DNA of 56,757 bases from assembly GCA_002720935.1 (NCBI GenBank), contig PBIV01000056.1:1-56757 (forward strand), written 5' to 3'. Shown here in pieces: positions 20,570-56,638 of the stretch. A model generated the notes under the pieces. The model was not told the DNA's origin, did not search any database, and was given only the letters and a program-made list of their open reading frames with translations. The position numbers and the translations under genes were made by a program. The DNA comes from Rickettsiales bacterium. Its GTDB lineage: Bacteria > Pseudomonadota > Alphaproteobacteria > Micavibrionales > GCA-2720935. Within the stretch, counting starts at the first letter, position 1, and each line of letters begins with the position of its first letter.

Positions 20570-20645
20570 TGGTTGCGGGGGCAGGGTTCGAACCTGCGAC
20601 CTCTTGCGTATGAGACAAGCGAGCTGACCACTGCTCTACCCCGCA
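20570..20645 (-). tRNA. Phage-encoded tRNA with CAT anticodon (Met, or Ile2 if lysidine-modified)
   Basis: The minus strand reads TGCGGGG-TA-GAGC...GCTC-G-CTTGT-CTCATAC-GCAAG-AGGTC-GCAGG-TTCGAAC-CCTGC-CCCCGCA-A-CCA. The U1-A72 pair argues against an initiator. Confidence 0.85.
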
Positions 20646-54704: not shown

Positions 54705-54774
54705 GCTACGTTGACATCGTAGAGGTCACAAGTTCGAATCTTGTTATGCCCACCATTTAAATCAATGACTTAGC
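54705..54774 (+). repeat. attR core (70-bp direct repeat, pseudo-3' part of tRNA-Val)
   Basis: Identical by eye to 16036..16105. Confidence 0.9.
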
Positions 54775-54804: not shown

Positions 54805-54880
54805 GGTCTGTTACGTGGTCTGTAACGTCTATTTTGTTCTACCTCTGTTCTCAAAACTCTTTTGGGTACCGTATGGGCAT
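54805..54880 (-). pseudogene. Remnant of an older related integrative element: two diverged arm-site repeats plus the last ~17 codons of an integrase gene
   Basis: GGTCTGTTACGT/GGTCTGTAACGT tandem, then CTATTTTGTTCTACCTCTGTTCTCAAAACTCT...TATGGGCAT. This aligns with the int 3' end CTATTTCTTGCGTCCTCTGTTTTCAAAACTCT...AATGGGCAT at 16160-16230. Confidence 0.65.
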
Positions 54881-54915
54881 AAAAAAACAGACCCTCAAAC
54901 GGGGTCTATTTTTAA
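54881..54915 (-). terminator. Intrinsic (bidirectional-looking) terminator downstream of sodC
   Basis: AGACCC-tcaaacg-GGGTCT hairpin (54889-54907) flanked by an A-run and a T-run. Confidence 0.65.
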
Positions 54916-54940: not shown

Positions 54941-55537
54941 TTATTTCTCAATAACAGCGCACGCAACGCGACCACCAGCATCACCAGTTGGCTGTGAGGT
55001 GTAATCATCTGTTCCTGCATGGATGATAAAGGCTGAACCGTCTTCATCAAAAACAGACGCTCTGTCCCCATCATTTTCATCATGCAATGTAATCATCTCA
55101 TTAATCAGTTCTGCCTTTACAACACCATTTTCATTGGCATAAACATTGGGTAGGTCGCCAGCATGAGGGCCTTTATGTTGTACCATACCATGGTCATTAT
55201 TCATGGGGTTAAAATGTGATCCAGTATTTGTAAATGGACTAACATCCTCGCCCGTCATTAATGGAGTGCAATCAGCTGTCTCATGAATATGAATGGCGTG
55301 ATAGCCTTCTGAAACACCTTTTACATCCAACTTGATTAAAACATTTTTACCAAAATCTTCTAAAGTGGCAGTCCCGATTTCTTCGCCTTGCGGGTTAACA
55401 AAAGTGGCTTTAGCTGTTTTTGTTGCTGGTGCCATCGCATTTGTTGTGTTCATTGCGCCTGCTACCAAAGCAATGCCTAAGAAGGCCGTTAAAACGCTTC
55501 TAATGATTAGTGATGAATATTTTGAATTTAAAATCAT
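54941..55537 (-). CDS. sodC: Periplasmic Cu,Zn superoxide dismutase
   Basis: Signal peptide, then GYHAIHIHETADC, GSHFNP, HAGDLPN and IIHAGTDDYTSQPTGDAGGRVACAVI. Confidence 0.9.
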   Translation of the reverse strand: MILNSKYSSLIIRSVLTAFLGIALVAGAMNTTNAMAPATKTAKATFVNPQGEEIGTATLEDFGKNVLIKLDVKGVSEGYHAIHIHETADCTPLMTGEDVSPFTNTGSHFNPMNNDHGMVQHKGPHAGDLPNVYANENGVVKAELINEMITLHDENDGDRASVFDEDGSAFIIHAGTDDYTSQPTGDAGGRVACAVIEK

Positions 55538-55584
55538 AAAATAACTCCTTTTCTTTATCCCTTTTTAAGGTAGTGCAGATAGTC

Positions 55585-55627
55585 ATAAAAGAAAGCCCAT
55601 AGCTCTGATAAAAAAGCTAGGGCTTTC
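55585..55627 (-). terminator. Intrinsic terminator hairpin between the TPP aptamer and sodC (probable expression platform)
   Basis: The minus strand reads GAAAGCCCTAGCT-tttttatcag-AGCTATGGGCTTTC followed by TTTTAT. Confidence 0.6.
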
Positions 55628-55632
55628 CAGTG

Positions 55633-55717
55633 ATAGCTTCCTAAACGCCAGTGCTAACTGGATCAGGTTCTAAGGGTTCTTCTCAGCTGGCTAGAACAAG
55701 CCCAGCGCCCCTGCTAT
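55633..55717 (-). promoter_or_regulatory. TPP (thiamine pyrophosphate, THI-box) riboswitch aptamer
   Basis: The minus strand reads AUAGC-AGGGGCGC-UGGGCUUGUUCUAGCCAG-CUGAGA-AGAACCC-UUAGAACCUGAUCCAGUUAGCACUGGCGUUUAGGAA-GCUAU. It matches E. coli thiM GGGGUGC...CUGAGA..ACCC..ACCUGAUCUGGAUAAUGCCAGCGUAGGGAA, with a P1 stem ATAGC/GCTAT. Confidence 0.8.
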
Positions 55718-55762
55718 TGATGTTCTTAAAACGTTTTAAAACCGATTTAAGTTCAATTTTTT

Positions 55763-56188
55763 TTAAGCTGCTAAACAAATCTCATTGAGAGCTGTTCCAC
55801 AAGCATCTTTATTCTCATAGGCTTTTGTCAGATCGCCTAAAGAGACCATACCAATTAGTCTTTTTTCTTCATTGTTGTTAAGAACAACAAGACGTCTTAC
55901 AGCGTTGCTCGCCATGTTTTGTAAGATATCTTCAACATCATCTTCTTCATAACAATAAAGAACATTTGGAGTTTGGCATTCTTCTGCTGTCATGGTTACA
56001 GGATCTAAAGATTCAGCCGCACAACGAAGCGCAATATCACGATCGGTAATAATGCCTTCAATACGGTCATCCAGAGCAACCAAAATTGCACCACAATCAT
56101 GCTCTTTCATCAGCCTTGCGACTTCCGCAATCGGGGTATCTGGCTCAACATATTGAACATTTTCATTTAACGCGTCTCTAATAATCAT
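55763..56188 (-). CDS. CBS-domain pair protein
   Basis: 141 aa with two CBS repeats (...MKEHDCGAILVALDDRIEGIITDRDI... and ...MASNAVRRLVVLNNNEEKRLIGMVSLGDL). Confidence 0.75.
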   Translation of the reverse strand: MIIRDALNENVQYVEPDTPIAEVARLMKEHDCGAILVALDDRIEGIITDRDIALRCAAESLDPVTMTAEECQTPNVLYCYEEDDVEDILQNMASNAVRRLVVLNNNEEKRLIGMVSLGDLTKAYENKDACGTALNEICLAA

Positions 56189-56275: not shown

Positions 56276-56638
56276 TTATTTTTTGACTATGAAAAATGCT
56301 TGCATTGCGAGATAGAGCCATGAGCCCATTAAAACCATACCGCCAATTGGCGTGATATAAGTGATTTCTTTGATATTGAAAATTATAGATGCATAAATGC
56401 TAAAAGAGAATAAAATCGCCCCAGCAAGAAAGGCGAGTGCTGAGCGATAAAGCTTTAAATCTTGCGGGGCTAAGGTTAGAGCAACAGATAAAACCGCATA
56501 AATCATATTATAGCGAATAGCCGTTTCTAAACTCGCAACTCGATCTGGCGTAATTTCGAAATAATGATCGCCTAATGCCCCCATTAAAACAGAAACAAAG
56601 CCAAGCATAGCCGCGACGGATAATATTTTATATTTCAT
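56276..56638 (-). CDS. DUF423 (YgdD-like) small inner-membrane protein
   Basis: 120 aa with four TM segments. The GALGDH motif is typical of DUF423. Confidence 0.65.
   Translation of the reverse strand: MKYKILSVAAMLGFVSVLMGALGDHYFEITPDRVASLETAIRYNMIYAVLSVALTLAPQDLKLYRSALAFLAGAILFSFSIYASIIFNIKEITYITPIGGMVLMGSWLYLAMQAFFIVKK

What the first reader, a model, noticed from the sequence alone, without database searches (positions are those of the whole stretch)
55585..55717. A TPP riboswitch with a terminator platform sits directly upstream of sodC instead of a thiamine gene
The minus strand between the CBS-domain gene and sodC carries a textbook THI-box aptamer. It has P1 AUAGC/GCUAU, GGGGCGC, a P3 hairpin, CUGAGA, ACCC, and ACCUGAUCCAGUUAGCACUGGCG...AGGAA. 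About 5 nt later comes a 13-bp hairpin and a U-run, then 47 nt to the sodC start with a GGAG RBS. TPP riboswitches normally control thiamine biosynthesis or transport genes. None is present in this window, and the next gene in the direction of transcription is a periplasmic Cu,Zn superoxide dismutase. Either sodC expression is coupled to TPP status here, which to my knowledge is an unreported regulon member. Or the aptamer is a stranded relic after loss of a thi gene, plausible in a reduced genome. In that case it may still terminate read-through from the CBS gene.
Basis: partly seen in the sequence, partly recalled or inferred. Interest (0 to 1): 0.6.

Follow-up and report, generated by a model that had tools for sequence, protein, structure and literature searches.

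The report
Vitamin-B1 riboswitch controlling a superoxide dismutase
A textbook thiamine-pyrophosphate (vitamin B1 cofactor) sensing RNA switch, the only one in this small marine alphaproteobacterial genome, sits directly in front of a periplasmic copper-zinc superoxide dismutase gene rather than a vitamin gene. It is kept unchanged between strains, so this bacterium probably ties an oxidative-defence enzyme to its vitamin B1 status.

Summary
Rfam TPP (RF00059) matches window 55621-55722 (-) at 64.6 bits (gathering score 54.3), full length, with no non-standard pairs. A 16-bp hairpin plus U-run follows, then a 47-nt spacer with a GGAG ribosome-binding site, then an intact, signal-peptide-bearing Cu,Zn sodC that has its own terminator.

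It is the only TPP riboswitch in the assembly. The 38.7-kb prophage next to sodC is bounded by 70-bp att repeats and lies outside the unit. Prophage-free strains show sodC converging on tRNA-Val, so no thiamine gene was lost there by the phage insertion.

Across 8 haplotypes the aptamer has 0 of 91 variable sites, against 17 of 149 four-fold sites in the flanking genes. The three leader variants are two loop changes and one U.G to U-A change. This argues against the relic reading.

Folding predicts an antiterminator that competes with the aptamer. None of 97 other sodC loci examined carries a TPP element (cmscan on 93; upstream gap too short in 4). The genome and its two sister genera lack ThiE, ThiL, TPK and ThiB, and the genome itself also lacks ThiC, ThiO, ThiS and ThiG, yet it encodes TPP-dependent enzymes.

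Most likely this is a working TPP-OFF transcriptional switch on sodC, a new regulon member.

The parts
55633..55717 (-). TPP (THI-box) aptamer from P1 to P1. The Rfam hit spans 55621-55722.
   Evidence: RF00059 at 64.6 bits (gathering 54.3), full model, no non-canonical pairs. It is the only TPP hit in the genome. 0 of 91 sites vary among 8 haplotypes.
55585..55628 (-). Intrinsic terminator of the expression platform. 16-bp stem with bulged U 55599, loop 55612-55607, U-run 55589-55585.
   Evidence: RNAfold -22.2 kcal/mol. The strain variants are 55608 and 55607 (loop) and 55605 G>A, which turns U.G into U-A.
55615..55635 (-). Segment holding the P1 3' strand, the linker and the terminator 5' arm. 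In the predicted ligand-free fold it pairs instead with aptamer segments 55707-55715 and 55653-55662, forming an antiterminator.
   Evidence: The leader truncated before the terminator 3' arm folds to -32.3 kcal/mol in this alternative fold, against -26.4 for the aptamer fold. This is in silico only.
55538..55584 (-). 47-nt spacer with the GGAG ribosome-binding site at 55545-55548.
   Evidence: Read from the sequence. 0 variable sites among strains. No promoter-like site.
54941..55537 (-). sodC, a periplasmic Cu,Zn superoxide dismutase of 198 aa with an N-terminal signal peptide.
   Evidence: PF00080 E 3e-36. NCBIfam SodC models hit below their equivalog cut-offs. PDB Cu,Zn SOD matches. The metal ligands HxH, HFNP, H..H..D, IIHAGTDD and GGRVAC are readable in the translation. 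Only two full-length protein alleles, 1 aa apart, were found over at least 28 contigs.
54881..54907 (-). Terminator of sodC (AGACCCCGUUUGAGGGUCU plus a U-run), which makes sodC monocistronic.
   Evidence: the same palindrome was flagged on the + strand.
55763..56188 (-). Stand-alone CBS-pair protein gene. Its stop codon lies 40 nt upstream of the aptamer with no terminator between them, so it is a likely source of transcripts entering the riboswitch.
   Evidence: PF00571 E 9e-26. No terminator-like or promoter-like site in the gap.
56276..56638 (-). DUF423 membrane protein gene, upstream on the same strand.
   Evidence: PF04241.
54705..54774 (+). attR of the neighbouring prophage, a 70-bp exact repeat of the tRNA-Val 3' end at 16036-16105. 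It marks sodC as lying outside the prophage.
   Evidence: Integrase at 16160-17254. Prophage-free strains join the two flanks collinearly.

Best explanation
[quoted passage not shown] Transcripts probably read through from the CBS gene 40 nt upstream, or start at an unrecognised promoter in that gap, and enter the aptamer. When cytoplasmic TPP is ample, the aptamer closes P1 and P2. That leaves the 5' arm of the 16-bp hairpin free, the terminator forms, and transcription stops at the U-run 47 nt before sodC. When TPP is scarce, the P1/P2 5' strand and the P5 strand pair instead with the P1 3' strand, the linker and the terminator 5' arm. This antiterminator lets the polymerase run into sodC. 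The organism appears unable to make TPP, although it has TPP-dependent enzymes. Cellular TPP would therefore report external or host supply, and SodC would be raised when that supply fails. What is shown: the aptamer, the hairpin, the gene order, the within-species constraint, and the uniqueness among the sodC loci sampled. What is inferred: TPP binding, the switching mechanism, and the physiological logic.
For: Aptamer: full-length and above Rfam's gathering score with clean pairing. Its P4/P5 25-mer is identical to that of 26 metagenomic TPP riboswitches; where a downstream gene could be read by eye it resembled thiB, thiC, thiD or an SDR of the OarX type.

Target: sodC is the only reachable gene. 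It has its own terminator and converges on tRNA-Val, both here and in prophage-free strains.

Constraint: among 8 haplotypes, aptamer 0/91 variable against 17/149 four-fold sites in sodC plus CBS (Fisher 2e-4). The leader without the loop has 1/179, p 1e-5 against four-fold sites and 0.023 against other non-coding DNA. The only changes are two in the loop and one U.G to U-A.

Platform: the alternative fold sequesters the terminator 5' arm and beats the ligand-free aptamer by about 6 kcal/mol before the 3' arm is made.

sodC itself: it is a live gene with intact ligands. Only 2 full-length protein alleles (1 aa apart) were found, while 12 of 91 four-fold sites vary. It has no promoter-like site after the terminator, so it needs read-through.

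Thiamine genes: no ThiC/O/S/G, ThiE, TPK, ThiL or ThiB. Three Transket_pyr genes are present.
Against: The arrangement is known from a single species. No intermediate relatives exist in the databases, so there is no covariation and no cross-species conservation of the link. Against other non-coding DNA the aptamer's lack of variation is only marginal (p 0.048), and sites are linked. The antiterminator includes a long-range helix enclosing the whole aptamer, so its kinetic feasibility is unproven. No promoter was recognised upstream. The U-run is short (UUUAU after a terminal G.U pair). The genome is a 73% complete MAG, so missing thi genes could lie in the gaps; ThiC/O/S/G were not checked in the sister genera. 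No obvious biochemical reason links TPP to a periplasmic SOD.
Confidence: 0.6

Rival explanations
1. Stranded relic. The aptamer once controlled a thiamine or TPP transporter or a thi gene that was lost or replaced when the sodC block was assembled next to tRNA-Val. Today only the hairpin matters, as a constitutive terminator of the CBS transcript, and sodC is transcribed independently.
For: The roughly 4.3-kb block holding sodC is lineage-specific. The sister genus G001 has two different genes between tRNA-Val and the shared 226-aa gene. A 32-nt integrase-like remnant lies between attR and sodC. This sodC is only 34-38% identical to those of the same-family genomes but 45-51% identical to those of other families, which hints at horizontal transfer. 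The genome has lost thiamine biosynthesis.
Against: The aptamer shows no decay: 64.6 bits and clean pairs. It is invariant among haplotypes that differ at 11% of four-fold sites and at 2 of 6 terminator-loop positions. No promoter-like site exists in the 47-nt spacer. The spacer is also invariant.
Confidence: 0.2
2. The switch is functional, and its selected role is TPP-dependent 3'-end formation or dosage control of the upstream CBS (and DUF423) transcript. The effect on sodC is a by-product.
For: The aptamer starts 40 nt after the CBS stop codon with no terminator between them. The hairpin is the only terminator available to the CBS gene.
Against: A riboswitch that acts only after the CBS coding region is complete cannot change CBS protein output much. 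Read-through necessarily produces sodC mRNA with a good ribosome-binding site, so sodC is regulated in any case.
Confidence: 0.08
3. The aptamer responds to a ligand other than TPP, such as a thiamine precursor, a breakdown product or an oxidised thiamine species. On that reading the link to an oxidative-stress enzyme would be direct.
For: The context is non-canonical. Variant riboswitches with altered specificity are known in other classes (own knowledge).
Against: All consensus positions of both sensor helices match the TPP model. The pyrophosphate-sensor helix is letter-identical to riboswitches of thiB, thiC and thiD genes.
Confidence: 0.04
4. Assembly or binning artefact that joined a riboswitch to an unrelated gene.
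For: The genome is a 62-contig MAG with 4% contamination and several off-GC contigs.
Against: The same CBS-riboswitch-sodC order is found on at least 13 independently assembled contigs that span it. They come from Tara Pacific, Tara Oceans, ZHEN20 and Logan assemblies and include an 842-kb scaffold.
Confidence: 0.01

Closest known systems
Canonical bacterial TPP riboswitch (THI element, Rfam RF00059) of the transcription-termination type, as in Bacillus subtilis thi leaders (own knowledge) and the thiC and thiOSG leaders of same-order relatives
   Same: Same aptamer architecture and conserved nucleotides. An OFF-type platform with a terminator hairpin that competes with aptamer strands. Located in the 5' leader.
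   Different: The controlled gene is a periplasmic Cu,Zn superoxide dismutase, not a thiamine biosynthesis, salvage or transport gene. Sun et al. 2013 (PMC3766115) describe the TPP regulons of 249 genomes (564 TPP sites, about 1800 genes) with two categories, biosynthesis and transport, and never mention superoxide. Here it is also the only TPP riboswitch, in a genome where no thi pathway was found.
TPP-riboswitch-controlled oarX/fmnO (short-chain reductase and flavin monooxygenase) operons (PMC11223231)
   Same: TPP-regulon members that are neither biosynthetic nor transport genes. They are suspected of dealing with oxidised or damaged thiamine.
   Different: oarX clusters with thi genes in 87 genomes. 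sodC here stands alone, acts on superoxide rather than on a thiamine derivative, and the link is seen in one species only.
Cofactor riboswitches recruited to control users of the cofactor: the AdoCbl riboswitch sRNAs EutX/Rli55 that govern ethanolamine utilisation in Enterococcus and Listeria (own knowledge, not checked here)
   Same: A vitamin-cofactor riboswitch regulates genes outside the cofactor's own synthesis and transport.
   Different: Those act in trans through sequestration of a regulator, and the regulated pathway needs the cofactor. SodC does not use TPP, and control here is in cis.
Prophage-associated sodC genes of E. coli O157:H7 (PMC2569942) and Salmonella (own knowledge)
   Same: A periplasmic sodC immediately adjacent to an integrated prophage.
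   Different: Here sodC lies 167 nt outside attR and is present in prophage-free strains, so it is not phage cargo of the current prophage. No riboswitch is reported for those genes.

Membership tests
TPP riboswitch (Rfam RF00059) | Covariance-model score at or above the curated gathering threshold over the full model | tested here: met
   64.6 bits against 54.3, model positions 1-105, E 1.9e-10; reproduced in the whole-genome search.
TPP riboswitch (Rfam RF00059) | Conserved P1-P5 architecture with the pyrimidine-sensor (CUGAGA, P2/P3) and pyrophosphate-sensor (ACCUGAUC..GCG, P4/P5) elements | tested here: met
   All upper-case consensus positions are matched and no non-canonical pair is flagged; only the variable P3a is missing. 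The P4/P5 25-mer is identical to 26 canonical riboswitches.
TPP riboswitch (Rfam RF00059) | Binds TPP | not testable with these tools
   Needs in-line probing, ITC or a reporter assay.
TPP riboswitch (Rfam RF00059) | An expression platform that couples ligand binding to gene expression | tested here: inconclusive
   A terminator is present, and a mutually exclusive antiterminator is predicted (-32.3 against -26.4 kcal/mol before the 3' arm is made). This rests on thermodynamic prediction only, with no covariation available.
TPP riboswitch regulon (thiamine biosynthesis, salvage or transport genes) | The downstream gene belongs to thiamine metabolism or uptake | tested here: not met
   The downstream gene is Sod_Cu, it is monocistronic, and no thi gene follows in any strain.
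Rho-independent (intrinsic) terminator | GC-rich stem-loop immediately followed by a U-run | tested here: met
   16-bp stem at -22.2 kcal/mol, then UUUAU. The U-run is short, and the consensus scan did not list the hairpin.
Bacterial periplasmic Cu,Zn superoxide dismutase (SodC, PF00080) | Sod_Cu domain with the copper and zinc ligands, the catalytic Arg, the disulfide cysteines and an export signal | tested here: met
   PF00080 at 125 bits and PDB SOD matches. The motifs HAIHIHE, HFNP, HKGPHAGD, IIHAGTDD and GGRVAC, and an N-terminal hydrophobic signal ending AMA, are read from the translation. Enzyme activity was not tested. Scores are below the NCBIfam equivalog cut-offs.

The most novel reading that the evidence does not exclude
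In a marine alphaproteobacterium that cannot make TPP, the one surviving TPP riboswitch has been re-purposed as a supply sensor that switches on periplasmic superoxide defence when vitamin B1 runs short. There are two possible reasons. B1 starvation may signal a hostile or host-free state. More interestingly, periplasmic SodC may protect scarce, oxidation-labile thiamine or TPP on its way to the importer, which would make SodC a genuine 'damage pre-emption' member of the thiamine economy. Either way it would be the first riboswitch-controlled ROS-defence gene and the first TPP regulon member outside thiamine synthesis, salvage and transport.
Probability: 0.3. Interest if true: 0.78.

Novelty: new variant of a known kind. 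Interest (0 to 1): 0.6.

Why it matters
TPP riboswitches are the most widespread riboswitch class, and gene adjacency to them is routinely used to assign thiamine-related functions. An intact, selectively maintained TPP switch whose sole target is a periplasmic superoxide dismutase would be a clear exception. It would show that a cofactor riboswitch can outlive its pathway and be recruited to control a stress gene. It would also point to a physiological link between vitamin B1 limitation and extracellular superoxide, both of which are prominent in the surface ocean and in host-associated niches. In addition, it flags a small-genome marine lineage that seems to depend on imported TPP through an unknown route. 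The claim is directly testable with a 150-nt RNA and a simple reporter.

Tried and rejected
1. A hidden thi gene removed by the prophage. Rejected: the att repeats place sodC outside the prophage, and empty-site strains show sodC converging on tRNA-Val.

2. sodC as phage cargo. Rejected for the current prophage, for the same reasons.

3. TPP elements upstream of other sodC genes. None found in 13 same-order relatives or in 80 sodC loci from 401 same-class genomes, by cmscan at E<=1 and by a regex. The four nearest homologues have upstream gaps of only 52-127 nt.

4. Closer relatives of sodC, to obtain covariation. Nothing lies between 56% and 99% identity among 5.8 billion protein clusters.

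5. Tracing the riboswitch's origin with an exact 25-mer scan of metagenomes. It returned only unrelated canonical thiB, thiC, thiD and SDR leaders.

6. Synteny in sister genera. G001 keeps dnaX-tRNA-Val but has other genes in place of the sodC block. G002 is rearranged. Neither has any TPP riboswitch.

7. A second att core that would delimit an older island. None within 10 kb.

8. Promoter scan. Nothing convincing upstream of the aptamer or in the spacer.

9. Naming the organism via a dnaX scan of genome contigs. It returned only distant alphaproteobacteria at 55% identity or less.

11. Literature. No paper links a TPP riboswitch with sodC or superoxide dismutase.

Full report
**Observation.** The Rfam scan of the whole window gives one riboswitch hit. 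It is TPP (RF00059) at 55621-55722 on the minus strand, at 64.6 bits against a gathering score of 54.3, E 1.9e-10. It covers model positions 1-105 and has no non-canonical pair; only the optional P3a hairpin is missing. P1 is AUAGC 55717-55713 with GCUAU 55637-55633.

Five nucleotides after P1 a hairpin begins. Its 5' arm is 55628-55613, its loop 55612-55607 and its 3' arm 55606-55590, with 16 pairs and one bulged U at -22.2 kcal/mol. UUUAU follows. Forty-seven nucleotides later, after a GGAG at 55548-55545, comes the ATG of a 198-aa ORF. That ORF is a Cu,Zn superoxide dismutase (PF00080, E 3e-36; PDB SOD matches). It has a signal peptide and all metal-ligand motifs readable in the translation.

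sodC ends in its own terminator at 54907-54881. The only correction is that the stem is 16 bp rather than 13.

**Could a thiamine gene be hidden or recently lost downstream?** The window is one whole contig of a 1.72-Mb, 62-contig MAG that is 73% complete. Downstream of sodC lies a prophage. A 70-bp exact direct repeat (16036-16105 and 54705-54774) copies the 3' end of tRNA-Val(GAC), and a tyrosine integrase sits at 16160-17254. sodC lies 167 nt outside attR.

The identical SodC protein is encoded on 21 other contigs (Tara Pacific, ZHEN20, Logan). A one-residue variant is on 7 more (Tara Oceans). In the prophage-free contigs the order is DUF423, CBS, riboswitch, sodC, then the convergent tRNA-Val, a 217-aa gene and dnaX. 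The window's two host flanks align collinearly to them at 97-99% identity. So sodC is monocistronic, the switch can reach nothing else, and the arrangement is not an assembly artefact.

**Expression platform.** With the full leader, the minimum-energy fold is aptamer plus terminator at -48.6 kcal/mol. If the sequence is cut just before the terminator's 3' arm, which is the state the polymerase sees, the best fold is different. At -32.3 kcal/mol it beats the ligand-free aptamer (-26.4). In it, 55707-55715 (the P1/P2 5' strand) pairs with 55615-55623, and 55653-55662 pairs with 55626-55635. Nearly the whole terminator 5' arm is thereby sequestered.

TPP binding would lock those aptamer strands and free the arm. 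This is the logic of a kinetic OFF switch. It is a thermodynamic prediction only, and one of the two helices is long-range. No sigma-70-like promoter is seen in the 40-nt gap after the CBS stop codon or in the 47-nt spacer. The simplest reading is read-through from the CBS gene, with the riboswitch acting as an intra-operon attenuator.

**Is the aptamer a decaying relic?** Thirteen strain sequences plus the window give 8 haplotypes over 1983 nt.
- Four-fold degenerate sites vary at 12/91 in sodC and 5/58 in CBS.
- Other non-coding DNA varies at 15/412.
- The aptamer has 0/91 variable sites (Fisher 2e-4 against four-fold sites, 0.048 against non-coding DNA).
- The 52 nt from the U-run through the spacer to the sodC start have 0.

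The leader's only three variable positions are 55608 and 55607 in the terminator loop, and 55605, where G>A turns a U.G wobble into U-A and slightly stabilises the stem. The leader without the loop has 1/179 variable sites (p 1e-5 against four-fold sites, 0.023 against non-coding DNA).

The haplotypes thus differ inside the leader, but only where structure tolerates it. That is the signature of a maintained RNA structure, and it covers the sensor as well as the terminator. The caveats are few haplotypes, linked sites and a single species.

sodC itself is clearly a live gene. The whole 90%-identity cluster in a 15-billion-protein collection holds only two full-length alleles, one residue apart, while synonymous sites vary. 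With no promoter after the terminator, a live sodC requires conditional read-through.

**Is the TPP-sodC link seen elsewhere?** No.
- 13 same-order relatives with sodC have no TPP match within the fetched loci at E<=1.
- The four nearest SodC homologues (51-56% identity) have upstream gaps of 52-127 nt.
- In a sample of 401 genomes of the same class, 280 have TPP riboswitches and 82 have Sod_Cu genes. None of 80 sodC upstream regions of about 900 nt has a TPP match at E<=1.

The published survey of TPP regulons covers 564 sites and about 1800 genes. It uses only the categories thiamin biosynthesis and thiamin or precursor transport, and never mentions superoxide (PMC3766115). A literature search for the combination found nothing.

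A 25-mer from P4/P5 of this aptamer occurs identically in 26 metagenomic leaders. Where a downstream gene could be read by eye, it resembled thiB, thiC, thiD or an SDR of the OarX type. The sensor is therefore canonical and only the target is odd.

**Thiamine status of the organism.** This is the only TPP riboswitch in the assembly.
- tblastn with ThiC, ThiO, ThiS and ThiG from a same-order relative finds nothing.
- HMM searches find no ThiL, no thiamine pyrophosphokinase and no ThiB.
- They find only a weak TMP-TENI-like ORF and a divergent ThiD/PdxK-like kinase, both below the equivalog cut-offs.
- The two sister genera of the family, at 99% completeness, also lack ThiE, ThiL, TPK, ThiB and any TPP riboswitch.
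- All three genomes carry Transket_pyr-domain (TPP-dependent) enzymes.

The family thus looks dependent on imported TPP by an unidentified route. Intracellular TPP would then be a read-out of external supply.

**Origin.** This SodC is closer to those of other families (45-51% identity) than to those of its own family (34-38%). In sister genus G001 the dnaX-tRNA-Val junction is kept. Two unrelated genes there replace the roughly 4.3-kb block that here runs from a Cons_hypoth698 gene to sodC. A 32-nt stretch at 54829-54860, between attR and sodC, is 81% identical to the integrase 3' end.

The block is therefore lineage-specific and lies at an integration hotspot. The riboswitch may have arrived with sodC, or it may have been orphaned from a lost gene. 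That question of origin is open. It does not change the evidence for present-day constraint.

**Verdict.** Most likely (about 0.6) this is a working TPP-OFF transcriptional riboswitch whose selected output is sodC. It is a new regulon member for a well-known riboswitch class, in a B1-dependent marine alphaproteobacterium. The main rival (about 0.2) is a sensor-dead relic whose hairpin merely terminates the CBS transcript. Invariance of the aptamer and the lack of a sodC promoter argue against it.

The reason for coupling SodC to TPP is unknown. Two testable ideas are that B1 starvation acts as a stress or niche signal, and that periplasmic SodC protects scarce, oxidation-labile thiamine or TPP. 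The second idea fits with TPP-controlled oarX genes, which are suspected to handle oxidised thiamine (PMC11223231). Earlier scan notes also report TPP aptamers among stress genes in other lineages. These are unverified and are used only as leads. Binding, termination and expression all remain to be tested.

Noticed in passing
window 16036-54774: A 38.7-kb prophage integrated into tRNA-Val(GAC), with 70-bp att repeats and an integrase at 16160-17254. It carries its own tRNA-Met (20570-20645) and a D12 adenine methyltransferase at its right end. It is polymorphic: absent from the Tara Pacific and ZHEN20 contigs, present in some Tara Oceans contigs (L204, L205).
   Followed up: partly
window 54829-54860: A 32-nt stretch just outside attR is 81% identical to the 3' end region of the prophage integrase (16160-16191). 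This fits a remnant of an earlier element at the same tRNA. It is also present in prophage-free strains.
   Followed up: partly
window 56276-56638 (DUF423 gene): This gene is far more variable among strains than its neighbours: 16/55 four-fold sites and 18/240 first and second codon positions vary, against about 11% and under 1% in sodC and CBS. This suggests a recombination tract or diversifying selection on this small membrane protein.
   Followed up: no
L006 (G030:C144:2256-4843), match at 1501-1608: In a same-order relative, a TPP-like aptamer just under threshold (53.2 against 54.3 bits) with a strong terminator precedes a spermidine-synthase-like ORF (PF01564, weak). This may be another non-thiamine context for a TPP element in this order.
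   Followed up: partly
L003, L004, L005, L008 (relatives G012, G018, G039, G034); own genome C16:17276-17638: In same-order relatives the thiC riboswitch is always followed first by a small CHMI-family (PF02962) protein and then by thiC. The window's genome keeps a 31%-identical homologue between two ORFs that look like phospholipid-synthesis genes (not checked), with no riboswitch and no thiC.
   Followed up: partly
whole genome G000 and sister genera G001, G002: The family lacks ThiE, ThiL, thiamine pyrophosphokinase and ThiB but has TPP-dependent enzymes. It must therefore take up TPP, or a precursor handled by unknown enzymes, through an unidentified transporter. An earlier scan note proposes a riboswitch-linked ProP-like MFS permease for this role in intracellular bacteria; this was not checked here.
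   Followed up: partly
genome contigs C11, C20, C21, C27, C48, C53: These contigs have 46-49% G+C against about 38-39% for the rest of the MAG, so they are probably binning contamination. One of the three Transket_pyr hits lies on C11.
   Followed up: no
window 15110-15206: A small bacterial SRP RNA (58.7 bits) lies between dnaX and the 217-aa gene. This is an ordinary annotation point.
   Followed up: no
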